Positions 9,636-52,914 of a DNA stretch of 64,000 nucleotides are shown piece after piece. The position numbers and the translations under genes are program-made. Positions within the stretch are counted from its first letter, which is position 1. Every line of letters starts with the position of its first letter. The notes under the pieces were generated by a model. The model was not told the origin of the DNA. It did no database searches and saw nothing but the letters and a program-made list of their open reading frames with translations. Origin of the DNA: an uncultured Bacteriovoracaceae bacterium. Lineage in GTDB: Bacteria; Bdellovibrionota; UBA2394. The DNA lies in assembly GCA_964622975.1 (NCBI GenBank), contig CAZUTA010000014.1:3267-67266 (forward strand). Direction: 5' to 3'.

Positions 9636-10685
9636 TTGATTGCCACAATGGGCGGGAGCAAGTGTACTGGGGGACGAGGAGGGTGCCCATTGCACAAGCG
9701 CCTAATTGGGCTTTTAGCCTGTCCCAAATGTCCAAAATCCGATCTAGTACTGAACGATATCCGAGAAGCGGCTGAAGACGAGGTCATTGATGGAGACCTC
9801 ACGTGTAACTCATGTCAGACGATATACCCCGTCGTCCGCGGTATCCCTCGGTTTGTTCCTCCGCAAAATTACGCGGCGTCTTTTGGCTATCAATGGAATA
9901 CATTTCAACGTGAACAGTTGGATTCAAACACCAAGGCCAGACTTTCTGAACAACGCCTGTTGAACGAAACAGGATGGGCCAAAGAATGGTTTAAAGATAA
10001 ATGGATCCTTGATGCAGGTTGCGGAGCAGGACGATTTTTGGAAGTCGCGGCGCATTATGGGGCTCAGATTGTCGGGGTTGATTTGAGTCTTTCGGTGGAT
10101 GGCGTAAAAATTGGCTTGGCACAGTACAAAAACCTTCATCTTGTGCAGGGGAGCATTTTTGATCTGCCCTTTAAACCGGGTGTGTTTGATGCCTGCTATT
10201 GCATTGGAGTTTTACAACATACTCCCGATCCCTTAAGAGCGACTGCCTCACTCCCAAAAGTTGTAAAGCCGGGAGGTCGTTTGGCCGTGACTATTTATGA
10301 ACGACGCCAATTTACCATGCTCAACGCCAAATATGTTGCACGAGCAGTCACTCGGTTTTTGCCCAATCGACTCTTGCTTCAAGTGATTCGCGGAGTTATG
10401 CCCGTCGTGTTTCCTCTAACCTCTGTTTTGTACCGTCTTCCCATTGTTGGAAAATTCTTTCGATTCATCATTCCTGTCGCCAATTACGTCGAAATGAAAG
10501 AGCTCAGCTTGGCTCAGCGATACCAGCTCGCCATTCTTGACACCTTTGACATGCTCGCGCCGGCTTACGATATTCCTCAAAAGGAGCAACCCGTTCGACA
10601 TGTGCTTCAAGAAAAAGGTGTGGCAAATATTAAGCGTCTGCAGAACCCCGGATTAAACCTTACGGGAGAGAGGACAACCTTTTGA
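9636..10685 (+). CDS. SAM-dependent methyltransferase with N-terminal Trm112-like zinc ribbon
   Basis: LACPKCP...CNSC Cys pairs followed by ILDAGCGAGRFLEVAAHYGAQIVGVDL (motif I). Confidence 0.65.
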   Translation: MIATMGGSKCTGGRGGCPLHKRLIGLLACPKCPKSDLVLNDIREAAEDEVIDGDLTCNSCQTIYPVVRGIPRFVPPQNYAASFGYQWNTFQREQLDSNTKARLSEQRLLNETGWAKEWFKDKWILDAGCGAGRFLEVAAHYGAQIVGVDLSLSVDGVKIGLAQYKNLHLVQGSIFDLPFKPGVFDACYCIGVLQHTPDPLRATASLPKVVKPGGRLAVTIYERRQFTMLNAKYVARAVTRFLPNRLLLQVIRGVMPVVFPLTSVLYRLPIVGKFFRFIIPVANYVEMKELSLAQRYQLAILDTFDMLAPAYDIPQKEQPVRHVLQEKGVANIKRLQNPGLNLTGERTTF

Positions 10686-11986
10686 TTACTCAGGAAGTCA
10701 AATCGTGTCGTATTTGTAAAAGCACTCGCCTGACTCCTTTTTTGGATCTCGGCTTGATGCCACTGGTTAACTCTTACCTCAAGTCTCCCTCAGAAATTGC
10801 GAATGAACCCAAATTTCCTTTGATCATACTGTTTTGCAACGATTGTGCGCTTTCGCAACTGAGCCTAGTGGTTTCGCCCGAAGTGCTCTTTAGAGATTAC
10901 GACTATTATTCGTCCGTCTCTAAAACATTTCAAAGCCATTGTGCGCAGTTGGCCAAAAGTGCAGCGACCTATCAGGGGTTCGCACCATCAGATCTTGTTG
11001 TAGAGATTGCTAGCAACGATGGCTGCCTGCTTTCGGAGTTTAAAAAAGTCGGAGCCAGAGTCAAAGGAGTGGAGCCCGCAAGAAACCTCGCCAAAGTCGC
11101 CGAAAGTCGTGGGTTGCCTACGATCTCTGAGTTTTGGAGTGCAGAAGTTGCAAAGGAAATTTTAGCATCGGATGGTCCAGCCAAGATCGTTGTGTGCACG
11201 AACGTCCTAGCTCACGTGGATGACCTTCATGGATTTTTGGGAGCTGTTCGCAGTGTGTTGGCACAGGGGGGGCGATTCATATTTGAAGTGCCGTATATGG
11301 CAGAGTTTTTGAATCGACGGGCATTTGATACAACCTATCACGAACATCTGAGTTATTTTTTGGCGACGCCGCTCAAGCGAGCTCTCGAGATGAATGGCCT
11401 TACAGTCACCGATATTGAAAAGCTGGATATTCATGGTGGATCCATTCGAGTAACAGCACAGCCTGCCTCGGACGATCTGCTGCGAGTGAATGAACGGGTT
11501 ACGCAGATTTTGAATGCGGAGATCGCATCCGGCTTGCTCGAATCTTCTACATACCTGCATTTTCAGTCACAGATTTTGAGTCTGCGCGAGGAACTCTCCC
11601 TTTTTGTAAAGGGGGTTAAAGCTCGTGGCCATCGCATTGCAGCCTACGGAGCTTCCGCCAAAGGAAATGTTCTTCTCAATTTTTGCGGCCTTAACAAAGA
11701 CGATATTGATTTTGTAGTTGATGATACTCCTGCCAAACAAAACAAGCTCTATCCAGGCGTTCACATTCCTATAGTGGCAAGAAGCGAGCTCAAGAATCGC
11801 AATCCAAAATACTTACTCCTTCTCGCATGGAACTTTACCGAGGAGCTCATGGCGAATACCAAAGACTTTTCTGATTCTGGTGGCCGCTATGTTGTTCCTA
11901 TTCCCGGTTTACACGTACTCGCTCCTTCCATTTTGGAGATTAAGGCCCCTCATGAAAAAGCGGATTGTCTTTCTTCATCGGTATGA
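10682..11986 (+). CDS. NDP-hexose C-methyltransferase (TylCIII-like; Zn-binding N-domain plus C-methyltransferase C-domain)
   Basis: N-terminal CRIC...CNDC zinc-binding motif, a class I MTase core (VVEIASNDGCLL) and the C-terminal C-MT domain. 4-nt overlap with the upstream MTase. Confidence 0.65.
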   Translation: MITQEVKSCRICKSTRLTPFLDLGLMPLVNSYLKSPSEIANEPKFPLIILFCNDCALSQLSLVVSPEVLFRDYDYYSSVSKTFQSHCAQLAKSAATYQGFAPSDLVVEIASNDGCLLSEFKKVGARVKGVEPARNLAKVAESRGLPTISEFWSAEVAKEILASDGPAKIVVCTNVLAHVDDLHGFLGAVRSVLAQGGRFIFEVPYMAEFLNRRAFDTTYHEHLSYFLATPLKRALEMNGLTVTDIEKLDIHGGSIRVTAQPASDDLLRVNERVTQILNAEIASGLLESSTYLHFQSQILSLREELSLFVKGVKARGHRIAAYGASAKGNVLLNFCGLNKDDIDFVVDDTPAKQNKLYPGVHIPIVARSELKNRNPKYLLLLAWNFTEELMANTKDFSDSGGRYVVPIPGLHVLAPSILEIKAPHEKADCLSSSV

Positions 11987-13110: not shown

Positions 13111-14172
13111 GTGTTTGCCAAACGAGCTCATATCATCAATAGAAAAATTCGATTTGCGATAGTGGGGTGCGGGCGAATCTTTGAAAAACATTTAGAAGGA
13201 CTTGGGCACAACGCAAAGGATGCCGAACTTGTCGCAGTATGCGATTCGGATCCAAAGGCGCTCGATCAAGCCACTCAAAAAACAGGTGCCAAGGGTTATA
13301 GGCATTTAGATGCGCTCCTTTCAGATACAAATGCTGACATCGTCGTGATTGCCACTCCAAGCGGTCTCCATTCTGAACAGGCAGTAAAAGTGGCACTTTC
13401 AGGACGGCACGTCATGACCGAAAAACCTATGGCGACGCATTGGAGCGACGGAAAAGCAATGGTTCAAGCCTGCGACCAAGCCGGGGTTTACCTCTTTGTT
13501 GTTAAACAAAATCGATTTAATTCGACGATTGAAGCTGTAAAAAAGGCTGTCGACGAAGGCCGCTTTGGTAAAATTGTCATGGTCAGCATGAATGTCTTTT
13601 GGACTCGACCACAATCATACTACGACTCTTCGAGTTGGCGCGGAACTTGGGAGTTTGATGGCGGCGCCCTTATGAATCAGGCAAGCCATTACGTCGATTT
13701 AATGGACTATCTGATAGGCCCCGTAGAGAGCGTGCAAGCCCTCATCGGAACCCTGTCGCGTCGAATAGAAGTGGAAGATACCGCGGTCATGAGTGTGCGA
13801 TGGAGATCAGGCGCATTGGGCTCACTGAACGTTACCATGCTGACACACAACAAGAATTTTGAGGGCTCCATCACCATCTTAGGAGAAACTGGAACAGTTC
13901 GCATCGGTGGAATGGCGCTCAATAAAATTGAGCATTGGGAGTTTGCCGAAATGACAGAAGCGGATCGGCAAATTCAATCTGCAAGCTACGAAACAACTAC
14001 CGTCTACGGAAATGGTCATGGCTCTTACTATCATAACGTCATTCAAACCATGCTAGGTGAAGCGCCCCCCCTCACAGATGGTCGAGAAGGTTTGAGATCC
14101 CTTGAGATCCTTGTGTCCGCCTACAAATCTGCGCGAGATGGCCGGCGAATATCGCTGCCCTTAGAGATCTAA
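13111..14172 (+). CDS. Gfo/Idh/MocA family NAD-dependent sugar oxidoreductase (WbpB-like)
   Basis: [16 protein letters not shown] Rossmann N-terminus. Genetically coupled to a WbpD-like acetyltransferase (stop/start share nt 14172). Confidence 0.8.
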
Positions 14173-14741
14173 TGATTCATCCGACTGCCATCATTGACGA
14201 AGGAGCTCAAATTGGCGCTCGAGCCAGAATTTGGCACTGGGTTCATATTTGTAGCGGAGCTCGTCTTGGAGATGACTGCGTCCTTGGACAGAATGTATTT
14301 GTCGGCAATCGCGTCTCCATGGGAAACAATGTGCGAATACAAAACAATGTGTCCGTCTACGACGATGTCACTCTCGAAGATGATGTGTTTTGCGGACCCA
14401 GCATGGTGTTTACAAATGTGATCAATCCCAGGTCCGCCGTCAGCCGTAAGGATGAATACAAACGCACAATTGTTCGAAAGGGTGCAACTATCGGCGCAAA
14501 CGCCACAATTGTCTGTGGAGTTGAAATTGGTGAAGGAGCCTTTATTGGCGCGGGTGCTGTTGTGACTAAGAATGTTCCTTCCTACGCTCTCGTCGTTGGC
14601 AATCCAGCAAAACAAATCGGATGGATGGGAGCTTACGGTGAAAGGCTCATAGAAGATTCAGCTCAGAATATATGGAAATGCCCCAAGACCAACGAGATAT
14701 ACAGAAAATCTGAGCACGGACTTAAACGAGTCTCGATCTAA
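14172..14741 (+). CDS. Hexapeptide-repeat sugar N-acetyltransferase (WbpD/WlbB-like)
   Basis: Left-handed beta-helix hexapeptide repeats ([LIV]-G-x-x-x-x). The length and order after the WbpB-like gene match the UDP-2,3-diacetamido-2,3-dideoxy sugar pathway. Confidence 0.8.
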
Positions 14742-15972
14742 AAAAAATGAACCGATGCACAAAGGGCGCTCCCAAAATCAGAAGTGCGCCGAAAGCAACG
14801 ATATGATGTCGCATGCCCGTTCCATAATTGACGGTTCCCAGGCTCCAAACAAAATTTAGGCTCAGATATCCCGCGAGCAAAAGCTTAATCAGATGCTTTT
14901 GATTTTTATCCCGCACATAGACCAAACTCCAAAGAGCTCCCACCAGAAGAAACATCCTCAAAAAACTCTCCAGAGCGGCATAGAGATCAATACTCGCGCT
15001 CACCTGCCAAGGGAGAGGAGCAAACATATAGAGAAAAAACATGAGGGGGACTGAAACAAGAATACTCGCAATTGAGCTGGGATCAAAGTTAACGCCGTAA
15101 GTCGTCCGGCCAGGATCCTCACTCATGGGATGTGAGCGGTACTTCGCCACTTGTTCTGCAATATCGCCGCTTGCGAGCTTATCGAGACTCCCCAAATCTT
15201 CCAGTGAACTCACGCTCATCGAGGTCCCCATCAGTAATGCTCCCATTCCAATGAGCAAAAAAATAGCCGTGCGACGAGCCGAGAGATAGCGAAGACCCGT
15301 CGTCATTGCCCAAAGGGGCTTCCACACCAGAACCAAGATAATCAAAAAGGGAACGTACCCCACCAAGCCTGAATGCCAAAATCCAATACCTGCAGCGGCT
15401 GCAACAAAAGCAATCAAATCCAAAAACTTTCCATAAGTATGCCACCGCAACGCAAACACCATGGAAACCATAAAAAAAAGCATCTGATAGGATTCACGAA
15501 GCATCACTGAGCCAAACAAAACGCTTGTCGGCAAAAGGCAAAAGATAAACAGAACAAATGACCTATAGCGCTGATAACCGAGCAATTGCAAAAGCGATTC
15601 TGTGGCTAAAACAGACAGACTAAACGCAAAAACAGCACACACCTCTCCGAGCAAAAGTGAGACTCCGAAAGCCTGATACAGACTTCCGATCAGGAATAGA
15701 AAAGCGCCCAACCCCAAGTCAAAAAACTCTGGGTACGTGCCCGTCTCGACAATTCTTGCCAGAAATCCCTGCATCTTTACGGCATCGACATCAGCGCCAA
15801 GAGTGGGGCCTACGTAGACGTTATAAAGCGCTACACCAAATCGGATCAAAAGCGCGGCCCATACAATGAGGAGTGCAACTCCATCTCCTCTCAAGGTTTT
15901 ACTGAGAAGAGGAGCCAGTAATGCGAGGGCAAAGATAACCCAAGCGACTAACTCTGCGCCTAATTCGCCCAT
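14722..15972 (-). CDS. Polytopic membrane protein, putative O-antigen polymerase (Wzy-like)
   Basis: About 10-12 predicted TM segments and a large periplasmic loop. Lies between the Wzz-like and WbpD-like genes. No sequence motif is diagnostic. Confidence 0.4.
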
Positions 15973-16850
15973 GCTCCAGAACCGCCCCGATCTTTAGCCC
16001 CCACACCTCGAGAGTAAGTTCGGCGAACTTGACGTTCCCGCTGAACCAAATCCCAAACAATCAGACCTAACAGTAACGCTAAGAATGTTGCCAGAGTTCC
16101 CGTCACAGCAGACTTCAATCGCTGAGGACCAGACCGATCTGCAGGAACAATCGGTGGATCGATCACCACGAAGCTCTTTTGTTCCTTCTTGGCTTCAATT
16201 TGCGAAATCTCAAGTTGTTCTCGCAAAAGTGACAAAATTTTGGATTGAATACTGTACTCGCGCTGGCCCTGGCTCAACCGAAGATCATTGAGTCTTCTTT
16301 CAAGCGCGACCATCGCCACTTCCGCCTCTTTGAGTCTCGCTTCAAAAAATTCACGATTGGCCTGAGCTTTCTTGGTACTGATCTCGACCAAAGAAGCCTC
16401 TAGTTCATTGATGAGTTCGCTTACAACCTTTTGCGCCATCACCGGATCCGTCTGAGTAGACTCGATAATCATTGTGGGACCCGACGTTCGCCACTTTGCA
16501 CGAATCTCTTTTACCCCAAGACGCTCCTTGATCCGCTCTGTGACGCGCTCAGTTTTGAGGAGCACTTCAAATTGCGCAAGTTCATCGCTACTCGATCCTC
16601 CCCTAAACTGCGCAATCGCTTGAGACAATCCGCCCATAGATCCTCCTGGAGAATCCTTTAAGGGAACCAAAATTACACCACGACTCGTATAGTAGGGAGC
16701 CACTAAAAAATAAGTGTAAGAAAAAATCAATAGCCCCATCGTTGCCGCTACTATTGCAGCCAACTTCCAGCGCATTGACGCCAAGGCAACGATCTCGAAG
16801 AGATCCAAATTCCCTCCAAAACTAGCGTCGTTCTTTAAGGTAGTTCCCAT
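15960..16850 (-). CDS. Polysaccharide co-polymerase / chain-length determinant (Wzz-like, PCP-1)
   Basis: N-terminal TM helix (WKLAAIVAATMGLLIFSYTYFLV), coiled-coil periplasmic region, C-terminal TM helix (LATFLALLLGLIVWDLV). Confidence 0.55.
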   Translation of the reverse strand: MGTTLKNDASFGGNLDLFEIVALASMRWKLAAIVAATMGLLIFSYTYFLVAPYYTSRGVILVPLKDSPGGSMGGLSQAIAQFRGGSSSDELAQFEVLLKTERVTERIKERLGVKEIRAKWRTSGPTMIIESTQTDPVMAQKVVSELINELEASLVEISTKKAQANREFFEARLKEAEVAMVALERRLNDLRLSQGQREYSIQSKILSLLREQLEISQIEAKKEQKSFVVIDPPIVPADRSGPQRLKSAVTGTLATFLALLLGLIVWDLVQRERQVRRTYSRGVGAKDRGGSGAWAN

Positions 16851-16904: not shown

Positions 16905-18968
16905 TTAATGGACGTGCCGCTGAAGCTCTTTTTTTGTTAACTCCACAGCCCTTAAAGCCCTCATTTGCAAATGAGGGAGGCGTTCTTTTAACTCCCGACG
17001 TACCCTTTCAGACTGTTCGAAGAGTACCAAATAGTCCCTGATCAACGTCTCCAAGTTGAGATCTTGATACTCAATTGAAAAAGCTTCCTGACCAAACTCA
17101 TTTAAGAGGCCTCGGTATTTGTAGTTCCAACCTATCGCCAGGGAAGGCACTCCACTTGAGAGAGCGGCGACCAGCGCATGATAACGAGATCCCACAAATA
17201 CATCGCATTTAGAAATGATCGCCTTGAGTTCTGCGGGTGAGGAGTCTTTCTCTAAAAAAATTACTCCGTCACTGCCCTTGAAGGTCGCCGCAAAATCTCT
17301 GCCCAGTTGCCAGTCATCTAAAACACCCATATCTTCCTGGGAGGAATGAGCGATCACCAAAACACCATCGCCACGTTCAAGTAGCCAACACGCAAAATTT
17401 TTCATGCAGGATAAGTAATCTGCTGAACGACGAGAAACCATTGAACTTAAATTAATACCCACCCACTTTTTAGACTTTGAAAGAAGGGGTCGGTGATCTT
17501 GCGAAGCAGTACTATCCAACAAAATCGCAATGTCTGGAAACGCCTGATCCCCCACATTCAATCCAATCTCCCTCAAGCTCACGACCGAATCACTCTCTCT
17601 TGCGAGCACGAGGTCCGCCAAGTGCAGTGAATATGCCGCCCAGCGACTTTGCCAATGATGAAGGGGCCCGTACGTTTGAGTAAAACAAATCAGAGGCTTT
17701 CGCCAAATTTTGGCTAGAACCAATGGAACAACATCATAAAGCGCCGCCTTAAGACTTTTTCCGCCTCCAAACTTTACCCCATGCATATCCACCACGGCAT
17801 CGCATCCCTTAAAACAGCTCAAAGCGCCTTTCAGTCTTTTCAAGTTTGGTCGCGCTACAATCTCCACTTCATTGTCCAAATTGCATTCAAAGTCTCGCTT
17901 GAAGTCAGAGCTCAATAGACGAAAGCGAAGCGGTTGCTCAGGCCACACTTTTTGTAACGCCTGCTTCAGGCAGCTGAAAATGGCAGGGCCGCCTTTATTG
18001 CCGGTAAGCCCCAATCCAACGACAGCAATTTTTATAGACTTGCGCGGCAGGTTCTTCGGGCCAGAGCCAAACACGACCATGGATCCAAACCGTTGAACCT
18101 TCCATGAACGCTTGCCCGACAACTCGAGCAGGTACCTCTCCAGCTCTGATGGACTCAAGTGATTAATTTTTGAGGACAGCGACATATCACTCGCCGCCAA
18201 AGCAAAGTTTTTCTTTCCGACAACTGCAAAAAGAAAATCAAACAAAAAAAACCTCATGCGAGCGCTTGGGATTAATCGTCGAACTCTCCGAGCCAGCTTC
18301 TCCACAAGACCTCTTCGTTCTGAATAAACCCATGAAAATATCCAGCCATCTGTTTTGGCAACACGCTCGAGTTCTGAAAGGCACTGCTGAAGATTGTTAA
18401 CGTAGGGGAGTGCGCCATCACACCACACAATGTCGAACATCCTGGAGGGAAGGGGAATCTGACTGAGGTTCGCCCGAAAAAGATGAACATGGGGTAAAGC
18501 CTCTGTTCGTTGATAAGCGCTTTCCCACTCAGTCTGCACATCGAACGCATAGATTTGGGCACCATACTTCGCGAGATGAGTTTCGATTCTCGCCAAACCA
18601 CATCCCGCATCCAAGATGACCTTGCCTCGAATCTCCTCAAGACTCGATAGGCCAAGTTTAAAACAAAAGTCCTCCACTTCTTCCTTAACGGTCTTTCCAT
18701 AAAGAACTTCATGATCTCGAGAATTACTCAGAATCCTCCTAAAATATGCTCCATAGTTTTCGCCCGTGGTTGTGTCCATCCCTCTATCGAGGATTTCCGG
18801 CATTCCTCTGACGATTTCATAAGAACGATTGCACTTCGAACAATTCAAACAACCCGCAAAGACATGATCTCCTTTGAGCAAGCAACCTTCAGAACTCAAC
18901 CGAAAAACTTCCTGACAGCAGATGGACCTAAAAGCCTTGAGCGCAGAGACTCTCATGAGTACTTCCAC
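16905..18968 (-). CDS. Fusion protein: Trm112-like zinc ribbon plus class I SAM methyltransferase (N-terminal) with polysaccharide pyruvyl transferase (CsaB/WcaK-like, C-terminal)
   Basis: N-terminus has CLNCSKC and ILDAGCGLARIETHLAKYGAQIYAFDV. C-terminus has ...GSRYHALVAALSSGVPSLAIGWNYKYRGLL, the conserved pyruvyl-transferase region. Confidence 0.6.
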   Translation of the reverse strand: MEVLMRVSALKAFRSICCQEVFRLSSEGCLLKGDHVFAGCLNCSKCNRSYEIVRGMPEILDRGMDTTTGENYGAYFRRILSNSRDHEVLYGKTVKEEVEDFCFKLGLSSLEEIRGKVILDAGCGLARIETHLAKYGAQIYAFDVQTEWESAYQRTEALPHVHLFRANLSQIPLPSRMFDIVWCDGALPYVNNLQQCLSELERVAKTDGWIFSWVYSERRGLVEKLARRVRRLIPSARMRFFLFDFLFAVVGKKNFALAASDMSLSSKINHLSPSELERYLLELSGKRSWKVQRFGSMVVFGSGPKNLPRKSIKIAVVGLGLTGNKGGPAIFSCLKQALQKVWPEQPLRFRLLSSDFKRDFECNLDNEVEIVARPNLKRLKGALSCFKGCDAVVDMHGVKFGGGKSLKAALYDVVPLVLAKIWRKPLICFTQTYGPLHHWQSRWAAYSLHLADLVLARESDSVVSLREIGLNVGDQAFPDIAILLDSTASQDHRPLLSKSKKWVGINLSSMVSRRSADYLSCMKNFACWLLERGDGVLVIAHSSQEDMGVLDDWQLGRDFAATFKGSDGVIFLEKDSSPAELKAIISKCDVFVGSRYHALVAALSSGVPSLAIGWNYKYRGLLNEFGQEAFSIEYQDLNLETLIRDYLVLFEQSERVRRELKERLPHLQMRALRAVELTKKELQRHVH

Positions 18969-20329
18969 CTTTTAAATCTTCGACGAAGCTGAGTTCCAAA
19001 CGGAATGAGCGACATCGCTTGTCGTATCAAACTTGTTATCGTCAGACGCAGATACATGAATGGAACTCGCGCTTTAAAAAACGAGTACCCAAAGCCCGCT
19101 CTATTGAGCTTTCGCACCCATGAAGGAAAAAGCTCTGAGACCCAATAGAGGCTCAACGAGCGCTTTCGCACGGGAAGTAGTGGTCTGATGAATTCAGGGT
19201 AAAACTCGCCTCGACGTTTCATGCCGCAAATCAATGCCTCAGCACTGATACCCAATGCCAAATCTCGACTCTGTGATTCGACGATGTCTTCCTTTTTGCC
19301 AGTGATCAAATCTAAGCGCTGCCCCTTGATCATTTGATGTATCAATTTGTCGATCCTCTCATTTCGAGTAACGACTAAACTCGTGCCGAGCGACTCCCTC
19401 GCAAAGGCATCTAGCCAAGCGTCTCCAACACTCACGTCCGCCAAATAATTGAGGTGATCTACGCAGACCAAACATCGTCTCGTATTGTACGATCGAGAGA
19501 ACGCTGTTCGAAACGCTGCTGTATGAGAATCTCGATGTATCTGCGGCCGACGGCTGAACTGAAACTCCCGCTGGCCAGTTTTGATTCTCAACTGACCTAC
19601 TTTATCGCCCCCGCGATAACTGACTTCCGTGGGTTTCTCTAAGATGCCCTGAGACTTTAAAAAATGAACGAGAGAATTTCGACTAAACATCCACCCACAT
19701 ATCAAACCAATACTCAAAACCAATTGAGCACGAAGATCAGCCTGAAACAAAGTAGCCCACTTTTTAATCGCCGTGAGCTGGCAAGGTGTCGCTACGAGGA
19801 CCAATCGTTCAGAACTATTTTTCAAGATATCAATAACGCTTTCAAAAGAGAAGTTGTGATAGATAGACCCCGGCATTGAATTCATTTCTGCGGGATCTCT
19901 AAAAATCTCCGCTTTGTAATCAAGACCCCCCGCGTGTTTGAGAGACACCACGCCATCCGCGAGATCATTCTCAAGATAATACCTACAGATTTCTCGAATC
20001 ACGCCCCCGGAACTGGCGCGCCTTTGAATCTCAGCACTACTGCTTTTGCCTAAATAAACTCCTTCAACAGGTCCGAAGACCTCTTCTTCATCCATCCAAT
20101 TTGCCAACGCCCTAAAATCAACTTGATAACTCGGGCATACCTGCAAACAGGGCTTCGTAGAGCAAGTATCACAGGCCACTGTATTTTGGATGACGGGTTC
20201 ATAGATTCCTTTTGTGACTCTATACTCAATTGTGATTTCCTGAGCGGGACAGGCGTGACGACAGGCTCCACAACTAATACACAAATCATTCTCGGGAATG
20301 ATAGAAACGTTTTGAGGCAACACGTTCAT
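18953..20329 (-). CDS. Coenzyme F420 hydrogenase/dehydrogenase beta-subunit (FrhB)-like protein with N-terminal 2x[4Fe-4S] ferredoxin domain
   Basis: CISCGACRHACP and CDTCSTKPCLQVCP cluster motifs. FrhB-like proteins recurrently pair with pyruvyl transferases in CPS/EPS loci. Confidence 0.6.
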   Translation of the reverse strand: MNVLPQNVSIIPENDLCISCGACRHACPAQEITIEYRVTKGIYEPVIQNTVACDTCSTKPCLQVCPSYQVDFRALANWMDEEEVFGPVEGVYLGKSSSAEIQRRASSGGVIREICRYYLENDLADGVVSLKHAGGLDYKAEIFRDPAEMNSMPGSIYHNFSFESVIDILKNSSERLVLVATPCQLTAIKKWATLFQADLRAQLVLSIGLICGWMFSRNSLVHFLKSQGILEKPTEVSYRGGDKVGQLRIKTGQREFQFSRRPQIHRDSHTAAFRTAFSRSYNTRRCLVCVDHLNYLADVSVGDAWLDAFARESLGTSLVVTRNERIDKLIHQMIKGQRLDLITGKKEDIVESQSRDLALGISAEALICGMKRRGEFYPEFIRPLLPVRKRSLSLYWVSELFPSWVRKLNRAGFGYSFFKARVPFMYLRLTITSLIRQAMSLIPFGTQLRRRFKRWKYS

Positions 20330-21588
20330 GACACACTCGCCTTCGCCGTAAAGAGTGGCACTCTCAATACTTTGAGGAAAGCAACGATATGAGCAGGAAT
20401 AGAGAAAAAATATGTCACCAATATGTTAGAGACAAGAACAGCGGCATATCCCCACTTTGGAAAGAGATAGTAACTCAGAATGCACATGAGCAACACATTC
20501 GCTCCAAAAATTAAGGCCACAACTTTTGACTGCCCTCCCGCAATCTCGAAACTCGAAAAACTTACAGCTCTGGCTGGGAGCAAAAAGAGGGCTAACTGAA
20601 ATGCAGGAACACTCGCAAGATAATCGCCGGAGAAAAGGAGTGGTACCAAATCACCTGCAAAAAAATAAAGAATAAGAACCAGAGGAGCAAAGATGCTCAA
20701 GTTGATGCTCAACACACGCCAAAACAACCTCGCCACTCGGTGAGTCTCCCTTGCCAAAAATAGTTGAGTGAGGTCGACAGTTAACACGCGATTGAGAGGG
20801 CTCGTTAGACTTCCGAGAAATGTGACGACTGAAAGCGCCACTGTATAGTCTGCGAGATCTCCAGGAGTTCCCCATACCGAAACAAACCATCGATCAGCCT
20901 GAACCTGTAAATTTCCGAATATTGCAGAGAGCCAGAGTGGACTTCCATAGATCAACTGAGTTTTCCAGGAAGCGACCTTTCCCCGCCCATGCAATAAATT
21001 GAACGGAAGAATCATCAAACCCAGAAAATACTGAGCGCTGAGACCCAGGGCGAGGCCAATCCAAACTGCCTGAAAGCTCCCAAAGACAAGAGCAAAAATG
21101 ACCACCGAGGCGAAGAGGGCGGTTCTGCCCACGAGATGAAAGATCGCCAAGCGCCGATAAAGGCGAAAGCTCAGAAAAACAGGAGGTACCAATGAGAGGA
21201 GAAGACTCACCAGCACTGGGAAGCCCAAAAGCCAATTGAGATTTGAACTTGCAAAAGAATCTTTAAACAAAAATGTACGTAAATCTGTCCAAACAAATAC
21301 TCCCAAGAGAAAAACGAATCCGACGAGACCCAAAAGGAGAGTGGCGTCTCCAAACACTCGCCCTCGATGGCCAGGTTTTTGAAGCCAATAATAGAGGCCT
21401 TCAGACAATCCCATGCTCAGCAAAGGGGTCAATGTTGCGACAACCAAAAACGCCTGAGAGTAAAGCGCATAGTCGGCCTTCGGAAGAACTCTTGCGAGTA
21501 CCACGACCAAGAGAAATCCGGAGACCACCGCAAAGCCCTCAGCCTGCGCGACTTTCAGGGTTCTTGCAAAAAGGCTGCTCCCATCCAC
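20326..21588 (-). CDS. Wzx-like oligosaccharide flippase (MOP superfamily polysaccharide biosynthesis protein)
   Basis: 420 aa with about 12 TM helices and a Wzx-type N-terminus (RVLPKADYALYSQAFLV...). Confidence 0.55.
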   Translation of the reverse strand: MDGSSLFARTLKVAQAEGFAVVSGFLLVVVLARVLPKADYALYSQAFLVVATLTPLLSMGLSEGLYYWLQKPGHRGRVFGDATLLLGLVGFVFLLGVFVWTDLRTFLFKDSFASSNLNWLLGFPVLVSLLLSLVPPVFLSFRLYRRLAIFHLVGRTALFASVVIFALVFGSFQAVWIGLALGLSAQYFLGLMILPFNLLHGRGKVASWKTQLIYGSPLWLSAIFGNLQVQADRWFVSVWGTPGDLADYTVALSVVTFLGSLTSPLNRVLTVDLTQLFLARETHRVARLFWRVLSINLSIFAPLVLILYFFAGDLVPLLFSGDYLASVPAFQLALFLLPARAVSFSSFEIAGGQSKVVALIFGANVLLMCILSYYLFPKWGYAAVLVSNILVTYFFSIPAHIVAFLKVLRVPLFTAKASVS

Positions 21589-21709: not shown

Positions 21710-23068
21710 TTGAGACTCTGTTTTCCTGACTTCTGTCGAGCGGAACGTGAGTATATTTCTGAAATCGTATTTGGCGAATTGTTGGGGTTTCGTTTCGAGG
21801 TCTCTTGGAGCCAAAACCAAAGAGGCTCCATCATTCAAGCAGAGTACAACGGCGTCCCAGATCAAAAAACATTGCATTTAGATGATCGCTTCTTTGAACT
21901 GGCACGAGAATTCTGGCTTCGAAAAGAATCGCTTCCTCAGTCTCCACTCCAAGAATTTTTAATCTCCGATTTTTCAAAATCTCATGAAATTTCGCGATTC
22001 AAAAGCATCCCCCTCCTTTACGGAAATTCAAGGACCCTCACTTCGAGCACCTCTGACATCAAAGTTGATTTTGATATCTTGGGTTCGAGCTTTTTTCTGC
22101 TCAGCCGATATGAAGAACTCGTGATTTCCGATCGAGATCCACATGGAAGGTTCCCCTACTCCATGTCGATTTCATGCCGAGAGAATCTGATTCAACGCTG
22201 TCTTGTGAATGAATACGCAAATTTACTTGGAGAGATTATTAAGTCCCTTTGGCCGCAAGTTCAGCCCAAACCCCGCAAGGCTTTCAAGGTCTCCGTCTCA
22301 TGCGATGTAGACCGTCCTTCTTATTTTATTAACCGTCCAATACTTCATGTTGCCGAAGATTTTTTTCGAGATCTTCGATCGCCTTTATTGTTGGCAAAGC
22401 GATGGGGGGCATTTCTCCTCCAACAGCGAGATCCCTTCGACACTTTTGATTGGATGATGGACGAGGCGGAGAATGGCGGAGAGTTAATCACTTTTAACTT
22501 CATACCAAAGCGAACTCACAAGCTTGACGGAAAGTATGATTTTGAAAGACAGAGCGCGCTGATTCACCACATCCTCACGCGGGGACATTTTGTTGGATTT
22601 CATCCCAGCTACATGACGCATCTGGACGAAGACCGATGGAATTTGGAATTTGGTTTACTGAAGCAAAAAACTTCGAGCCTTGATTCTGTCAGACAACACT
22701 ATCTCCGTCTAAACATTCCAGAAACTTGGCAGATTCAAAGTCGAAGCGGCATTCACTATGACACGAGCCTCGGATATGCGGAAGCACCCGGATTCCGCGC
22801 AGGAACGTCTCACAGTTTTTTTGTCTATGATTTGAAACAAAGAGAAAAGATGAGTCTACAAGAGTCGCCGCTTATTTTTATGGATGCCTCTCTCAAGTAC
22901 TTGGGCATTCAAGATGATCAAGTGAGCGAAGCGCTTGCCATCATTCAAAATCTAAAATCTGAATGTCGATTTCACCACGGAAGTTTCAATGTCCTTTGGC
23001 ACAATTCAAATTTAGAGACACCACTTTCGCGATCTACGTTTCAGAGCGCCATTTCCAAGCGGGATTGA
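21710..23068 (+). CDS. Hypothetical protein, possible CE4/NodB-fold polysaccharide deacetylase-like
   Basis: CDVDRPSYF, FHPSYMTH and VLWHNSN segments resemble CE4 motifs. Weak call. Confidence 0.3.
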   Translation: MRLCFPDFCRAEREYISEIVFGELLGFRFEVSWSQNQRGSIIQAEYNGVPDQKTLHLDDRFFELAREFWLRKESLPQSPLQEFLISDFSKSHEISRFKSIPLLYGNSRTLTSSTSDIKVDFDILGSSFFLLSRYEELVISDRDPHGRFPYSMSISCRENLIQRCLVNEYANLLGEIIKSLWPQVQPKPRKAFKVSVSCDVDRPSYFINRPILHVAEDFFRDLRSPLLLAKRWGAFLLQQRDPFDTFDWMMDEAENGGELITFNFIPKRTHKLDGKYDFERQSALIHHILTRGHFVGFHPSYMTHLDEDRWNLEFGLLKQKTSSLDSVRQHYLRLNIPETWQIQSRSGIHYDTSLGYAEAPGFRAGTSHSFFVYDLKQREKMSLQESPLIFMDASLKYLGIQDDQVSEALAIIQNLKSECRFHHGSFNVLWHNSNLETPLSRSTFQSAISKRD

Positions 23069-23126
23069 TTGGGGCTTCGCCCCATATCCAGTGCTGAGTA
23101 GAATAAAATATTGGGAGGCGAACGGA

Positions 23127-23684
23127 ATGCAATTATTTAAATTAATCTGTTGGATCTTGGGATTGAGCCTTTTGGGCACAATTCCCGCGCAAGCTGGATC
23201 CACATTGATGCGCCTCTCTAAGCATTCAATGAATATCACCGGCAACGGATCCAAATATGTTTTGAAGTTTGACGAGACAATGAGTGCAGATGGAATCAAT
23301 TACGATCCAGAAGCAGGTGTCTTTCGAGTACAAGAAAGCGGAATCTATATGATCTCGTGGTCGCTTCCGATTGGAAACTTACTTCCTTCCAATGAAAGTG
23401 CTGCCGCCTGGATACATGCGGGTCCGTATGAATCATACATATTCAATGGCAACCCATGGAAAATGCGCAACCCCGGCGGGGTCATTGGAGGAGGAAGTGA
23501 TATTCTCGCTATCGTAGGCTCAGGTCTTTACCAGATCGATGCCACCGAAGACCCCAACGTCTGGATAGGACTTCTTGTGGGCGGCCACACCAGAAAGAAT
23601 GTCATTCTCCTCTACGACTCGTTTATCAGTATACAGAAAGTCGCAGATTATCCTCGGGGTGGTGCCATGCCCTCACGGAAATAG
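23127..23684 (+). CDS. Secreted C1q/TNF-like jelly-roll domain protein
   Basis: GGAGG lies 10 nt upstream of ATG 23127. Signal peptide MQLFKLICWILGLSLLGTIPAQA. Segment VLKFDETMSADGINYDPEAGVFRVQESGIYMISWSL matches the C1q core pattern (F-D-x-V-x-x-N-x-G-x-x-Y-D-x-x-T-G-x-F-x-x-P-x-x-G-x-Y-x-F). Confidence 0.4.
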   Translation: MQLFKLICWILGLSLLGTIPAQAGSTLMRLSKHSMNITGNGSKYVLKFDETMSADGINYDPEAGVFRVQESGIYMISWSLPIGNLLPSNESAAAWIHAGPYESYIFNGNPWKMRNPGGVIGGGSDILAIVGSGLYQIDATEDPNVWIGLLVGGHTRKNVILLYDSFISIQKVADYPRGGAMPSRK

Positions 23685-27199: not shown

Positions 27200-28345
27200 T
27201 TAAATTTGCCGATGCGGCTGAAACTTTCGAATAAACTTTCCTACCCGATTGATCATTGATTGGACAAAATCTTCATTTGGAAGTTCTCGATAATCCCGCA
27301 GAGGAGTTTTCATAACAGTTTCAAACTCTTCTCTCGAGATTTCTAACTTCTGAAGCACAAAGTCTCTCTCTCTGGCCAAAGCGTCTTCAGGATAAGGGGG
27401 GCGCCCCATCTCATCAAGTGCGCTGTCTCGGGTGATCTGACCTGAGAGAATCAGAGTCGATAGATGGCAGCGACGCTTATCGTATCCAAACTTTTTGGGA
27501 AGATAATAGCCCTGGTGAAATCGAGTATAGACTGATTCAAAATGCTTTCCCCCATAATCTCGCCATCCAAATTCTCTCGTCAAAAAATCCTTAGCCTCGG
27601 CCTTGTTGTAATCAATAAGATTTAAAACACCGTGCTGATACACAGGATGGATCCAACGATAATAAAAATAGCGCTTTAAGATTCCGATAGTTGGATAGCG
27701 GTTGAGCCGTCCTTGACCAAATCGCTTAAACACAGCCCTAAGACTTCGAAGATCCGTACATCTGTGCCCGCGATAGCTTTCAGGCAAAATGGCTTCCGTC
27801 ACAACATTGGTGCCCACAAGAATATGTTGAATTTTAAACTTTGCCGCCGTCGCATAAAGACTTGCAATGATTGAGTGATCCTGAGGTATGTCACAGTTCA
27901 CCATTCCTGATCGCAAGTATGCCACTTGCAGAGACTTCATCTCTTCCCAATCACAAACAAAAGTATGTAGTGGGATATCCAATTTTTCGAGCAATCGCTG
28001 AATATTCCCCACGGCAAGCTCTGAATTCCATCCGCTGTCAAAATGAAATGCCAGCGGTCTCAATCCCCACTTCTTGGCTAAATATGCGACGTATGAAGAA
28101 TCTACGCCACCGCTCACTCCTACGAGACAGTCAAAATCATTCTTTGCACCAGAGCGGCGAACCTTTGTAAGAAGCTCATCGAGTAATTTCTGAGACTTGA
28201 TAGGGTCTGCCAGTCTGCTTGCCGCTGTGTCTCGATACTCGTGGCAATAGTTACAGATCCCTTGAGCATCAAAAACAATCAAAGGATCTGACGTATCCAT
28301 GATACATTTCTGACAAATTTGATAGTGACCCCTCATCGCTCCCAT
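27200..28345 (-). CDS. N-acetyl sugar amidotransferase (WbpG/PseA/WbuX family, PP-loop ATPase)
   Basis: N-terminal Cys-rich zinc ribbon (CQKC...CNYC) and PP-loop GVSGGVDSS. HisH-like and HisF-like genes are in the same operon. Confidence 0.75.
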   Translation of the reverse strand: MGAMRGHYQICQKCIMDTSDPLIVFDAQGICNYCHEYRDTAASRLADPIKSQKLLDELLTKVRRSGAKNDFDCLVGVSGGVDSSYVAYLAKKWGLRPLAFHFDSGWNSELAVGNIQRLLEKLDIPLHTFVCDWEEMKSLQVAYLRSGMVNCDIPQDHSIIASLYATAAKFKIQHILVGTNVVTEAILPESYRGHRCTDLRSLRAVFKRFGQGRLNRYPTIGILKRYFYYRWIHPVYQHGVLNLIDYNKAEAKDFLTREFGWRDYGGKHFESVYTRFHQGYYLPKKFGYDKRRCHLSTLILSGQITRDSALDEMGRPPYPEDALARERDFVLQKLEISREEFETVMKTPLRDYRELPNEDFVQSMINRVGKFIRKFQPHRQI

Positions 28346-28383
28346 GAGCTACCGTAGCGCGACCCGTCGTTCAAAACAAGAAA

Positions 28384-29643: not shown

Positions 29644-30392
29644 AAGATCGAGGTGATTTCTTCTGGTTTAGGATAGGTAATCAGGACTGCACGGTATTTT
29701 CCATGGAATACAAAATAGCTTCCTGCCGCCACTGCGGAGGCTCCTGCTCGAGCTGCCGCAGCAAAGTCATCGAGCTTACCCGCACCGCCGTGCGCAATGA
29801 CGGGAACTTTTACCGCCTTAGACACTTCTTCGATCAATCTGATGTCGTAGCCGGCCATTGTTCCCTCTCGATCAACAGAAGTCAGGAGAATCTCTCCGAC
29901 ACCTCGAGACTCTAGCTCTCTTGCAAAATCTATGACGTTTGTGCGCAACTTTTGTTGAGCCCGTTGTCCGCAAACTTCGTACCCCCCTAAAAACTTTTTT
30001 CGAACATCAATAGATCCAATGATCGCTTGAGATCCAAATCGCTTTGCAGCTTCTTCTATGAATTGAGGGACCCTTTCAAAGGCAGCCGTATTCACTGAAA
30101 TTTTCTCAACGCCCAGACTTATGATTCGTTCAATCTGCTTTAGATTCTTAACGCCTCCGCCGTACGCAAGGGGCATAAAACACTGGGATGTCATTTGTTC
30201 CAATAGGCTATAGGAAGGTTCACGATTTTCCACACTGGCAGTCACATCCAAAAAGACGAGTTCATCGACGAACTTCTCATTAAAAATTCGAACCGCATTG
30301 ATGGGGTCGCCAATATAAACTGGATCTTTAAACTGCTTAGTTTTTACCAACCCTTTTCCATCGAGCAATAAAACAGGAATAACTCGAAGCAT
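29637..30392 (-). CDS. Imidazole glycerol phosphate synthase cyclase subunit HisF homologue (WbuZ-like)
   Basis: (beta/alpha)8 HisF signature. LLLDGKG...VFLDVTAS near the N-terminus and VIAHGGAG near the C-terminus. No other his genes nearby. Confidence 0.8.
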   Translation of the reverse strand: MLRVIPVLLLDGKGLVKTKQFKDPVYIGDPINAVRIFNEKFVDELVFLDVTASVENREPSYSLLEQMTSQCFMPLAYGGGVKNLKQIERIISLGVEKISVNTAAFERVPQFIEEAAKRFGSQAIIGSIDVRKKFLGGYEVCGQRAQQKLRTNVIDFARELESRGVGEILLTSVDREGTMAGYDIRLIEEVSKAVKVPVIAHGGAGKLDDFAAAARAGASAVAAGSYFVFHGKYRAVLITYPKPEEITSILC

Positions 30393-31486: not shown

Positions 31487-31492
31487 AAGATC

Positions 31493-51785: not shown

Positions 51786-51817
51786 AGATTCTCCTCACTT
51801 CCCCCCCTATTTGATTT

Positions 51818-52804: not shown

Positions 52805-52914
52805 TCCGCCTCTTTGGCACAGCTCTATTTGAAACGGCAAGGAATAAGGCAGTAGAATTTAATGCCACTCCAATCCTCAATAAGCCTTTGGATAGAGACG
52901 AATTTTAAGAACGC

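What the first reader, a model, noticed from the sequence alone, without database searches (positions are those of the whole stretch)
16905..20329. Methyltransferase-pyruvyltransferase fusion protein paired with an FrhB-like Fe-S protein
ORF 16905..18968 joins a Trm112-like zinc ribbon plus class I SAM methyltransferase domain to a CsaB/WcaK-type polysaccharide pyruvyl transferase in one 687-aa polypeptide. The next gene is an F420-hydrogenase-beta-like protein with two 4Fe-4S motifs. FrhB-like proteins next to pyruvyl transferases are a known but functionally unexplained pairing in CPS loci. Fusing an MTase to the pyruvyl transferase is unusual. It suggests coupled methylation and ketal-pyruvylation, or reduction of a pyruvyl ketal to a lactyl ether, on the same sugar.
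Basis: partly seen in the sequence, partly recalled or inferred. Interest (0 to 1): 0.6.

Follow-up and report, generated by a model that had tools for sequence, protein, structure and literature searches.

The report
Methyltransferase–pyruvyltransferase fusion with Fe-S flavoreductase partner
In a surface-polysaccharide operon, two neighbouring sugar-decorating genes (a methyltransferase and a pyruvyl transferase) have merged into one, and with the iron-sulfur flavoprotein gene just upstream they most likely attach a methyl-decorated lactic-acid ether to a sugar, not the usual pyruvate ketal.

Summary
On the minus strand, one 683/687-aa ORF (16905-18956/18968) carries a degenerate Trm112-like zinc ribbon, a Methyltransf_11 domain and a complete PS_pyruv_trans domain. 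The 458-aa FrhB-like protein with two ferredoxin-type 4Fe-4S motifs lies directly upstream, not downstream, with an ATGA stop/start overlap.

The closest relatives (Chloroflexota MAGs and metagenome contigs) have the same cassette, wzx / FrhB-like / MTase / pyruvyl transferase, as separate adjacent genes. The window protein is therefore an end-to-end fusion with a linker of about 4 aa. An exhaustive search of 1.84 billion representative proteins found no other protein matching both halves. One unrelated DUF354-MTase-PvT protein exists.

The FrhB-like/PvT pairing is close to obligatory: 68 of 80 genomic loci, with fusions in both orders. Klebsiella literature links such pairs to lactyl (1-carboxyethyl) ethers. 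K66 (PvT plus "F420 hydrogenase") and K22/K37 (PvT plus nitroreductase) carry lactyl ethers and no ketal pyruvate.

Best reading: PEP-dependent enolpyruvyl transfer, then flavin/Fe-S reduction, then methylation, on a lipid-linked repeat unit.

Caveat: the fusion junction has no independent confirmation. Another assembly breaks exactly there.

This is a new variant of a known kind, of moderate interest.

The parts
20326..21588 (-). Wzx-type flippase, first gene of the operon. Its TGA overlaps the FrhB-like ATG as ATGA.
   Evidence: Polysacc_synt_3 and Polysacc_synt hits; sequence at 20326-20329.
18953..20329 (-). FrhB-like Fe-S flavoprotein (458 aa), the proposed reductase partner.
   Evidence: FrhB_FdhB_N and FrhB_FdhB_C above cut-off. 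AF2 model pLDDT 89.7; best Foldseek PDB hits are F420-oxidoreductase modules 8riu_B, 8rja_E, Fsr 7npa, FrhB and HCAR 5dqr. The family has 186 hits at E<=1e-3; about 20 full-length homologues share 40-48% identity.
20129..20293 (-). N-terminal 2x[4Fe-4S] ferredoxin domain (aa 13-67). C17/C20/C23/C27 and C53/C56/C61/C65 are invariant.
   Evidence: Fer4_7 and Fer4_9 hits; invariant cysteines in an 18-sequence alignment.
19307..20059 (-). FrhB core (aa 91-341) with invariant SSGG 106-109 (FAD-type motif, my reading) and invariant C183, C211, C286 and C289 (candidate third cluster).
18959..19156 (-). C-terminal extension of three long aromatic/basic helices (aa 392-457), absent from FrhB proper. 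Inferred to be a membrane-interface anchor.
   Evidence: Secondary structure of the AF2 model; alignment. Membrane association is inference.
16905..18968 (-). MTase::pyruvyl-transferase fusion ORF (687 aa from GTG 18968; probable start ATG 18956, 683 aa).
18783..18920 (-). Trm112-like zinc-ribbon region (aa 17-62). The second CxxC is intact and the first knuckle is degenerate (SICC).
   Evidence: Weak NCBIfam hit. Relatives pass Pfam Trm112p. Alignment.
18273..18635 (-). Class I SAM methyltransferase core (aa 112-232) with motif I ILDAGCG.
   Evidence: Methyltransf_11/25/12/31 hits; 34-40% identity to stand-alone cassette MTases.
18033..18068 (-). Fusion junction. The MTase-homologous sequence ends near aa 307, the linker is PRKS (aa 308-311), and PvT strand beta-1 (IKIAVVG) begins at aa 312. 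An off-frame TAA lies at 18032-18034. The 9-bp stretch 18058-18066 is missing from assembly GCA_013558295.1.
16905..18035 (-). PS_pyruv_trans domain (aa 312-687) with a GT-B-like fold. GN-G, QTYGP and R-x-H (R595/H597) are conserved.
   Evidence: Pfam; alignment invariants; AF2 model pLDDT 82 with GT-B fold hits.
15960..16850 (-). Wzz-type chain-length determinant, 54 nt downstream of the fusion, with a GGAGG Shine-Dalgarno.
   Evidence: Pfam Wzz; sequence.
14722..15972 (-). Multi-pass membrane protein with no family hit, a probable Wzy-like polymerase. Last gene of the operon.
   Evidence: ORF and sequence; no Pfam or NCBIfam hit. The polymerase role is inferred from position and hydrophobicity.
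21710..23068 (+). DUF7033 / VimE-like deacetylase, divergently transcribed. The same family accompanies the cassette in relatives.

Best explanation
What is shown. The ORF is a genuine, lineage-specific end-to-end fusion of two adjacent genes. They belong to a conserved glycan-decoration cassette (FrhB-like Fe-S flavoreductase, Trm112/Methyltransf_11 methyltransferase, PS_pyruv_trans transferase). The cassette sits inside a Wzx/Wzy-type operon: wzx, frhB-like, MT::PvT, wzz, wzy-like. The first three genes are translationally coupled by ATGA overlaps. What is inferred. [quoted passage not shown] Normally the neighbouring hydroxyl would close the cyclic ketal. Here the FrhB-like protein instead reduces the enolpyruvyl (or oxocarbenium) intermediate to a 1-carboxyethyl (lactyl) ether. 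Electrons enter through its two ferredoxin-type clusters and are passed as a hydride from FAD. This is the MurA/MurB logic carried out by unrelated folds. The methyltransferase domain then methylates the same or an adjacent position, either a neighbouring hydroxyl or the lactyl carboxylate. Fusion to the transferase fixes 1:1 stoichiometry and proximity of the two steps.
For: Fusion of cassette genes. In relatives L001-L006 (a 3-Mb Chloroflexia MAG, an Anaerolineae MAG and metagenome contigs) the order is wzx / FrhB-like (45-48% identity) / MTase of 317-333 aa / PvT of 383-391 aa, as separate genes 1-18 nt apart. A DUF7033 gene lies nearby. The window protein aligns end to end with MTase plus PvT at 34-37% identity, with a linker of about 4 aa. 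There is no ATG or GTG for a separate PvT between the junction and the GNKGG motif. The catalytic motifs of both halves are intact. Operon coupling is shown. Rarity: the only protein matching both halves among 1.84e9 representatives. One independent DUF354-MT11-PvT fusion exists, P0207. Reductase-transferase coupling: 68 of 80 genomic FrhB-like loci have a PvT within 1.5 kb, and 7 of the other 12 are cut by a contig end. FrhB::PvT and PvT::FrhB fusion proteins occur repeatedly. Methyltransf_11 genes flank the pair independently in Parcubacteria, Syntrophales, three archaeal phyla and Bacteroidales. Lactyl link: Klebsiella K66 has a unique 'coenzyme F420 hydrogenase' gene plus the pyruvyltransferase wcqF. 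K22 and K37 share the pyruvyl transferase wclZ plus a nitroreductase. None of the three capsules has ketal pyruvate (PMC4616057). K66 carries beta-Glcp-O-lactyl, and K22/K37 carry 4-O-lactyl-GlcA (PMC6856556 Table 1; bioRxiv 10.1101/2025.09.09.675204; Parolis 1988 title). In Campylobacter, glucolactilic acid tracks pgl operons that contain a pyruvyl transferase gene (PMC13232197). The FrhB fold family includes hydride-transferring flavo-Fe-S modules and HCAR.
Against: No chemistry was measured, and the polysaccharide and the organism are unknown. The Klebsiella correlation rests on gene names in a supplementary table. I could not compare those sequences, or E. coli wfeP, with the window proteins. 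K8 also has a PvT gene without reported pyruvate and has no reported lactyl group. Nothing in the sequence distinguishes an enolpyruvyl-releasing PvT from a ketal-forming one. The target of the MTase is a guess. The junction is not independently verified: in GCA_013558295.1 two contigs end and begin 9 bp apart exactly there. The three database contigs that carry the 683-aa protein may all be the same sequence.
Confidence: 0.5

Rival explanations
1. This is ordinary ketal pyruvylation plus O-methylation of the same sugar. The fusion makes a methylated, ketal-pyruvylated residue. A precedent, from my memory only, is 4,6-O-(1-carboxyethylidene)-3-O-methyl-glucose in Mycobacterium avium serovar 8 glycopeptidolipid. 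The FrhB-like protein performs an unrelated redox step on another sugar, or only supplies electrons elsewhere.
For: PS_pyruv_trans is characterised as a family of ketal-forming enzymes, and the review PMC6801904 mentions no lactyl-forming members. The R-x-H and other family invariants are intact. The island contains many other sugar-modifying genes that could need redox chemistry.
Against: Well-studied ketal pyruvyl transferases (WcaK, CsaB, EpsO, GumL, ExoV, PssM; my knowledge) work without an FrhB-like partner. That leaves the near-obligate adjacency and the repeated physical fusion of FrhB-like and PvT unexplained. Klebsiella K66 has the pair but no ketal pyruvate.
Confidence: 0.2
2. The fusion is an assembly or sequencing artefact, or a population variant. 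The true genome has two genes as in the relatives, and a 1-nt length error in 18058-18066 (GG/CCC runs) merges the frames.
For: All close relatives have separate genes. In the fragmentary assembly GCA_013558295.1 the two 100%-identical contigs stop at 18067 and restart at 18057. The chance of a break within 25 nt of the junction is about 2% for contigs of about 2.6 kb. If the true sequence were one base shorter, the MTase frame would end at the TAA at 18032-18034, right at the PvT N-terminus.
Against: A separate PvT would have no ATG or GTG start, only ATA, ATT, CTG or a TTG that deletes strand beta-1. The contiguous ORF is recorded on three contigs up to 92 kb. In the closest genome (L004) the two genes already share a frame, so loss of a single stop gives exactly this product. 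Independent MT-PvT and FrhB-PvT fusions show that such fusions are tolerated.
Confidence: 0.15
3. One reading: the transferase completes a normal pyruvate ketal, and the FrhB-like enzyme then reductively opens the ketal to a lactyl ether.
For: It predicts the same end product, so the same genomic and Klebsiella evidence applies.
Against: Reductive cleavage of an unactivated ketal C-O bond has no flavoenzyme precedent that I know of. Reduction of an enolpyruvyl ether does (MurB; established knowledge). Tight fusion and coupling fits interception of a reactive intermediate better. Neither route was tested here.
Confidence: 0.1

Closest known systems
Unfused cassette wzx / FrhB-like / Trm112-MT11 / PS_pyruv_trans (/ DUF7033) in Chloroflexota MAGs (CAVVXQ010000009.1, JAFLCG010000010.1) and metagenome contigs L001-L003
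   Same: Same gene order and the same protein families. Identity is 45-48% for the FrhB-like protein and 34-37% for MTase and PvT. Genes are tightly packed, and a DUF7033 deacetylase gene is nearby.
   Different: There the MTase and PvT are two genes separated by a stop and 1-18 nt. The relatives' MTases have a longer hydrophobic segment, about 14 aa of which are deleted in the window. They also have a canonical first CxxC.
Klebsiella K66 cps genes HG203 ('coenzyme F420 hydrogenase') + wcqF (pyruvyltransferase), and K22/K37 wclZ + nitroreductase HG127
   Same: A PS_pyruv_trans-annotated gene is paired with a flavoreductase gene in a Wzx/Wzy capsule locus. The capsules carry O-lactyl-Glc or 4-O-lactyl-GlcA and no ketal pyruvate.
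   Different: No methyltransferase is reported there. Function there rests on correlation, not biochemistry.
FrhB::PS_pyruv_trans fusion proteins (e.g. P0168, P0170, P0180, P0230, P0278; reverse order P0271, L011, L019, L038)
   Same: They physically couple the same two activities, and they are widespread across phyla.
   Different: In those proteins the reductase is fused to the transferase. In the window the methyltransferase is fused and the reductase stays separate, though translationally coupled.
MurA / MurB (UDP-GlcNAc enolpyruvyl transferase and UDP-enolpyruvyl-GlcNAc reductase)
   Same: Proposed chemical logic: a PEP-derived enolpyruvyl ether on a sugar hydroxyl, followed by flavin-dependent reduction to a lactyl ether (established for MurA/MurB; inferred here).
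   Different: The folds and families are unrelated: GT-B-like PS_pyruv_trans instead of the EPSP-synthase fold, and FrhB-type Fe-S flavoprotein instead of MurB. The likely substrate is lipid-linked, and the electron input is Fe-S, not NADPH.
P0207, a 933-aa DUF354 + Methyltransf_11 + PS_pyruv_trans protein
   Same: It is the only other protein found with an MTase domain N-terminal to a PvT domain in one chain.
   Different: Its MTase is of a different subfamily with no Trm112 ribbon, and it has an extra DUF354 domain. It is an independent fusion event, and its context is unknown.

Membership tests
PS_pyruv_trans (Pfam PF04230) | Match to the family HMM above the gathering score, over the full length | tested here: met
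   79.8 bits against a cut-off of 25.3; profile positions 1-279 of 280.
PS_pyruv_trans (Pfam PF04230) | Two-Rossmann GT-B-like fold and conserved GN-G, QTYGP and R-x-H motifs | tested here: met
   AF2 model pLDDT 82 with GT-B fold hits. N, QTYGP and R/H are invariant in the alignment. The clade lacks the GGDSF[ST]DIYG loop.
PS_pyruv_trans (Pfam PF04230) | PEP-dependent formation of a cyclic pyruvate ketal | not testable with these tools
I argue that the product may be a lactyl ether instead.
CsaB / WcaK equivalogs (TIGR03609, TIGR04006) | Score above the NCBIfam equivalog cut-off | tested here: not met
   CsaB 85.6 bits against 213.1; WcaK 24 bits against 727.
Class I SAM methyltransferase (Methyltransf_11) | HMM above the gathering score and glycine-rich SAM motif I | tested here: met
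   58.2 bits against 21.2; ILDAGCG in the sequence.
Trm112-like zinc ribbon | Two CxxC knuckles and an HMM above cut-off | tested here: inconclusive
   NCBIfam 19.7 bits against 77. The first knuckle is SICC and the second is CSKC. Orthologues in L004 and L006 and the window paralogue have Pfam PF03966 hits; L006 and the paralogue exceed the gathering cut-off, while L004's hit is marked weak.
FrhB/FdhB family (PF04422 + PF04432) | Both domain HMMs above cut-off, and the FrhB fold | tested here: met
   43.5 bits against 22 and 87.4 bits against 23.3. Foldseek top hits are 8riu_B, 8rja_E, 7npa, FrhB and HCAR at E 1e-16 to 1e-11.
F420-reducing hydrogenase beta subunit proper (TIGR03289) | Equivalog score, and FrhA/FrhG hydrogenase neighbours | tested here: not met
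   57.6 bits against 331.5. All neighbours are glycan genes.
Lactyl-ether (glycolactilic acid) synthesis pair, as inferred for Klebsiella K66 and E. coli O124 | A PS_pyruv_trans gene adjacent to a flavoreductase gene in a glycan locus | tested here: met
   ATGA-coupled neighbours in the window. The pattern is general: 68 of 80 loci.
Lactyl-ether (glycolactilic acid) synthesis pair, as inferred for Klebsiella K66 and E. coli O124 | Sequence homology to HG203/wcqF or wfeP, and a lactyl ether in the product | not tested
Searches in E. coli genomes failed. The product is unknown.
MurA/MurB | EPSP-synthase-fold enolpyruvyl transferase and MurB-type FAD reductase | tested here: not met
   Neither family appears in the Pfam or NCBIfam scans. 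The folds are GT-B and FrhB. This is a functional analogy only.

The most novel reading that the evidence does not exclude
The three activities (PEP-dependent GT-B-fold transferase, FrhB-type Fe-S flavoreductase, SAM methyltransferase) form a widespread pathway, uncharacterised biochemically, that installs methylated 1-carboxyethyl (lactyl) ethers on lipid-linked glycans in bacteria and archaea. This would be a non-homologous counterpart of MurA/MurB. It would make a large fraction of the genes annotated 'polysaccharide pyruvyl transferase' and 'coenzyme F420 hydrogenase beta subunit' in glycan loci mis-named. The window's fusion would be direct evidence that methylation is mechanistically coupled to the transfer step, for example by blocking ketal closure through O-methylation of the neighbouring hydroxyl.
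Probability: 0.3. Interest if true: 0.65.

Novelty: new variant of a known kind. Interest (0 to 1): 0.45.

Why it matters
If the fusion is real, it is a Rosetta-stone link showing that the cassette's methyltransferase and pyruvyl transferase act together. Combined with the near-obligate and often fused FrhB-like/PvT pairing, this defines a three-enzyme glycan-decoration module.

The Klebsiella genotype/structure correlations give that module a concrete and cheaply testable product: a lactyl ether in place of a ketal. That would explain why 'F420 hydrogenase' genes sit in polysaccharide loci of organisms that are not known to use F420. It would also improve prediction of surface-antigen chemistry from sequence, which matters for serotyping, phage depolymerase specificity and vaccines. 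Finally, it would add a second, non-homologous route to muramic-acid-like lactyl ethers.

Tried and rejected
1. Looking up the exact fusion protein on contigs found nothing on record.

2. Independent confirmation of the junction failed. The only readable second assembly (GCA_013558295.1) stops 9 bp short on each side. A scan of JGI metagenome contigs for the 29-mer next to the junction found nothing.

3. Organism identification failed. The genome is not among the GTDB species representatives, and exact-sequence cluster look-ups returned no names.

4. I first thought the ATA codon (I312) was a decayed PvT start codon. I dropped this. A gap-free alignment from the GNKGG motif puts the relatives' Met one codon earlier, opposite Ser311. 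The off-frame TAA could also be chance.

5. I tried to show that E. coli wfeP (O124/O164) or other lactyl O-antigen genes are PvT or FrhB-like. Fishing with K-12 glf, blastn with a Bacteroidales pair and inspecting three glf loci found no O124 cluster. The key papers (Senchenkova 2006, Knirel 2017, Liu 2008) are not held.

6. A full-length AF2 model of the fusion was abandoned, because MAFFT misaligned the half-length homologues. The two partners were modelled separately instead.

7. PDB sequence search gave only generic MTase hits and no solved PvT relative.

8. The window's second Trm112-MT11 gene (9636-10685) is only 27% identical, so it is not a recent duplicate of the fused MTase.

Full report
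OBSERVATION.

The two ORFs exist at the stated coordinates, but on the minus strand. ORF 16905-18968 is 687 aa from a GTG start.
- Pfam places Methyltransf_11 at aa 119-211 (E 1e-15).
- Pfam places a full-length PS_pyruv_trans at aa 324-615, covering profile positions 1-279 of 280 (E 4e-22).
- NCBIfam adds a sub-threshold CsaB-like match (85.6 bits against 213) and a weak Trm112 ribbon match (19.7 bits against 77).

ORF 18953-20329 is 458 aa. It has a ferredoxin-type dicluster domain (aa 13-67), FrhB_FdhB_N (91-164) and FrhB_FdhB_C (174-341).

Transcription runs from high to low coordinates, so the FrhB-like gene is upstream of the fusion. The order is wzx (20326-21588), FrhB-like, MT::PvT, wzz (15960-16850), then a Wzy-like membrane protein (14722-15972).
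- The wzx stop and the FrhB-like start overlap as ATGA.
- The FrhB-like stop overlaps in the same way with an ATG at 18956. That ATG is preceded by AGGTGG and matches NCBI's 683-aa protein P0001.
- The wzz gene follows after 54 nt and has a GGAGG site.

IS THE FUSION REAL, AND WHERE DOES IT COME FROM?

The word-indexed search of 5.8 billion proteins returned only the protein itself plus stand-alone pyruvyl transferases. An exhaustive phmmer search of 1.84 billion cluster representatives found no other protein matching both halves. The next hits are PvT-only proteins (391-420 aa, up to 39% identity) or MTase-only proteins (226-328 aa, up to 41%).

Genomic contexts of the best FrhB-like homologues explain the origin. 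In three metagenome contigs and in a 3-Mb Chloroflexia MAG the order is wzx / FrhB-like / Trm112-MT11 MTase (317-333 aa) / PS_pyruv_trans (383-391 aa). These are separate genes 1-18 nt apart, with a DUF7033 gene nearby. An Anaerolineae MAG shows the same arrangement.

The window protein aligns end to end with MTase plus PvT (34-37% identity). MTase homology ends near aa 307, four residues (PRKS) follow, and the first beta-strand of the transferase starts at aa 312. In L004 the two genes share a reading frame, separated by TAG plus 15 nt. Loss of a single stop would therefore produce exactly this architecture.

In the window there is no ATG or GTG from which a separate transferase could start. 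Both halves keep their family motifs. I conclude that this is a fusion of neighbouring cassette genes.

The caveat is serious. The only other assembly I could read (GCA_013558295.1, contigs of 2-3 kb) is 100% identical to the window, but one contig ends at 18067 and the next begins at 18057. That 9-bp hole sits right at the junction. If the true sequence were one base shorter, the MTase would terminate at an off-frame TAA at 18032-18034. The three database contigs that carry the 683-aa protein may all be the same sequence annotated more than once. I put the artefact or polymorphism reading at about 15%.

THE FrhB-LIKE PARTNER.

The family is large. It has 186 hits, many around 450 aa long and 40-48% identical. 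Invariant residues are:
- CxxCxxCxxxC and CxxCx4CxxxCP motifs;
- an SSGG motif;
- four further cysteines (C183, C211, C286, C289).

The AF2 model is confident (pLDDT 89.7). Its best structural matches are F420-oxidoreductase modules: 8riu_B, 8rja_E, the N-terminal half of Fsr, FrhB, and plant HCAR. It fails the FrhB equivalog cut-off and has no hydrogenase neighbours. A C-terminal extension of three aromatic/basic helices (aa 392-457) suggests attachment to the membrane surface. That point is inference.

HOW GENERAL IS THE PAIRING?

A scan of one genome per GTDB species with the FrhB-like profile gave 285 relatives. I analysed 80 loci with my own HMMs for the three proteins.
- 68 loci have a PvT within 1.5 kb, usually overlapping or abutting the FrhB-like gene.
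- 7 of the remaining 12 are truncated by a contig end.
- 3 loci encode PvT::FrhB fusion proteins.

Among the long hits of the exhaustive search, at least eight are FrhB::PvT fusions and one is PvT::FrhB. The two proteins therefore almost certainly act together.

The FrhB/MT/PvT triad with the Trm112-type MTase is confined to the window's nearest clade (L001-L006). That MTase subfamily is rare, with 11 hits in 5.8 billion proteins. However, unrelated Methyltransf_11 genes flank the pair in Parcubacteria, Syntrophales, Thermoproteota, Nitrososphaerota, Aenigmatarchaeota and Bacteroidales loci. One DUF354-MT11-PvT fusion also exists. Methylation is thus a recurrent companion of the pair.

WHAT DOES THE MODULE MAKE?

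Well-studied ketal pyruvyl transferases work without a reductase (my knowledge). The 2019 review of glycan pyruvylation mentions no reductase, lactyl ether or methyltransferase in this context.

The comparative study of Klebsiella capsule loci is informative.
- K66 alone has a 'coenzyme F420 hydrogenase' gene (HG203) next to a unique pyruvyltransferase (wcqF).
- K22 and K37 share a unique pyruvyl transferase (wclZ) and a 'nitroreductase' (HG127).
- The authors note that K22, K37, K66 and K8 have pyruvyl-transferase genes although their capsules contain no pyruvate.

The published structures show that K22 and K37 carry 4-O-lactyl-GlcA. K66 carries a beta-Glcp-O-lactyl side chain. I read this from PMC6856556 Table 1 and validated the column reading on K37. 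So in the K-antigen composition table of PMC6856556, the lactyl-ether entries I identified (K37 and K66; K22 from the other sources cited above) belong to K types that pair a PS_pyruv_trans gene with a flavoreductase gene and lack the ketal.

Further leads:
- E. coli O164 differs from O124 only by loss of glucolactilic acid, through a frameshift in wfeP.
- A 2006 paper reports two genes for glucolactilic acid in Shigella boydii 17.
- In Campylobacter, glucolactilic acid tracks pgl operons that contain a pyruvyl transferase gene.
I could not establish the protein families of those genes.

MECHANISM (INFERRED).

The transferase adds a sugar hydroxyl to C2 of PEP. Ketal closure does not follow. 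Instead, the FrhB-like flavoprotein reduces the enolpyruvyl or oxocarbenium intermediate to a 1-carboxyethyl ether. It is fed through its two ferredoxin-type clusters and delivers a hydride from FAD. This is the MurA/MurB logic carried out by unrelated folds (GT-B; FrhB).

The methyltransferase then modifies the same residue, at a neighbouring hydroxyl or at the new carboxylate. Its target is not determined.

The position of these genes between wzx and wzz/wzy, and the amphipathic segments in both proteins, suggest action on the undecaprenyl-PP-linked repeat unit.

CONTEXT.

The window is a glycan island of about 50 kb. It contains:
- rmlABCD;
- PglC/D/E/F-like genes;
- WbpB/WbpD-like genes;
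- a WbpS-like amidotransferase;
- a VimE-like deacetylase;
- WbuX/HisH/HisF-like genes;
- a sugar C-methyltransferase;
- a second Trm112-MT11 gene (27% identical to the fused one);
- two Wzx flippases;
- a Wza-like exporter.

The organism is unidentified. The cassette's nearest relatives are Chloroflexota at less than 50% identity.

VERDICT.

The object is a rare fused variant of a conserved but biochemically uncharacterised decoration cassette. Its most likely product is a methyl-decorated lactyl ether.

My probabilities:
- the fusion is real: about 0.8;
- the lactyl-ether chemistry: about 0.5-0.6;
- the combined statement: 0.5.

Noticed in passing
window 18057-18067 (contigs JACCDN011067017.1 and JACCDN011140301.1 of GCA_013558295.1 = L085, L086): A second public assembly with more than 1.1 million contigs, probably a host or metagenome assembly, holds this operon at 100% identity in 2-3 kb pieces. 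It breaks with a 9-bp gap exactly at the MTase/PvT junction.
   Followed up: partly
window 9636-10685 (+) and 10682-11986 (+): A second, stand-alone Trm112 + Methyltransf_11 gene, 27% identical to the fused MTase, overlaps the start of a sugar C-methyltransferase (Methyltransf_13/14). A further small MTase lies at 6851-7510 (-). This one island therefore holds four MTase domains.
   Followed up: partly
window 4820-6847 (-), 13111-14741 (+), 21710-23068 (+): A WbpS-like asparagine-synthase amidotransferase, a WbpB-like oxidoreductase with a WbpD-like hexapeptide acetyltransferase, and a VimE-like (DUF7033) deacetylase occur together. This gene set suggests a di-N-acyl-glucuronamide sugar like the Porphyromonas A-LPS linking sugar.
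   Followed up: no
window 27200-32116 (-): An NAD-synthase-like protein, a second Wzx, HisF-like and HisH-like proteins and a DegT aminotransferase lie together. This resembles WbuX/WbuY/WbuZ-type acetamidino-sugar synthesis and implies a second repeat-unit pathway in the same island.
   Followed up: no
window 17700-17760 (fusion aa ~390-400); alignment A4: The window's PvT clade (window, P0002, P0010) replaces the GGDSF[ST]DIYG loop of other PS_pyruv_trans hits with DMHG-VKF and a 4-residue deletion. This could be a signature of the MTase-associated subfamily.
   Followed up: no
window 18230-18300 (fusion aa ~225-262): The hydrophobic segment after the MTase core is about 14 residues shorter than in the unfused orthologues of L001 and L004. 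The membrane anchor may have been partly lost after the fusion.
   Followed up: no
window 40311-43034 (-) and 43044-44978 (-): A 907-aa Wza/EpsE-type export protein has a long N-terminal extension. Next to it is a 644-aa PglF-like dehydratase with an N-terminal membrane domain that resembles sugar-phosphate transferases.
   Followed up: no
window 23091-23684 (+), 35097-36110 (-), 50700-52840 (-), 56513-58147 (-): Several sizeable ORFs inside or beside the island have no Pfam or NCBIfam match.
   Followed up: no
L090 (E. coli Ec-U7, NZ_CM192139.1 1534008-1534886): An E. coli group-1-type capsule locus has glf and a short (292-aa) pyruvyl-transferase-family gene with no reductase neighbour. It is an example of an unpaired PvT.
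   Followed up: no
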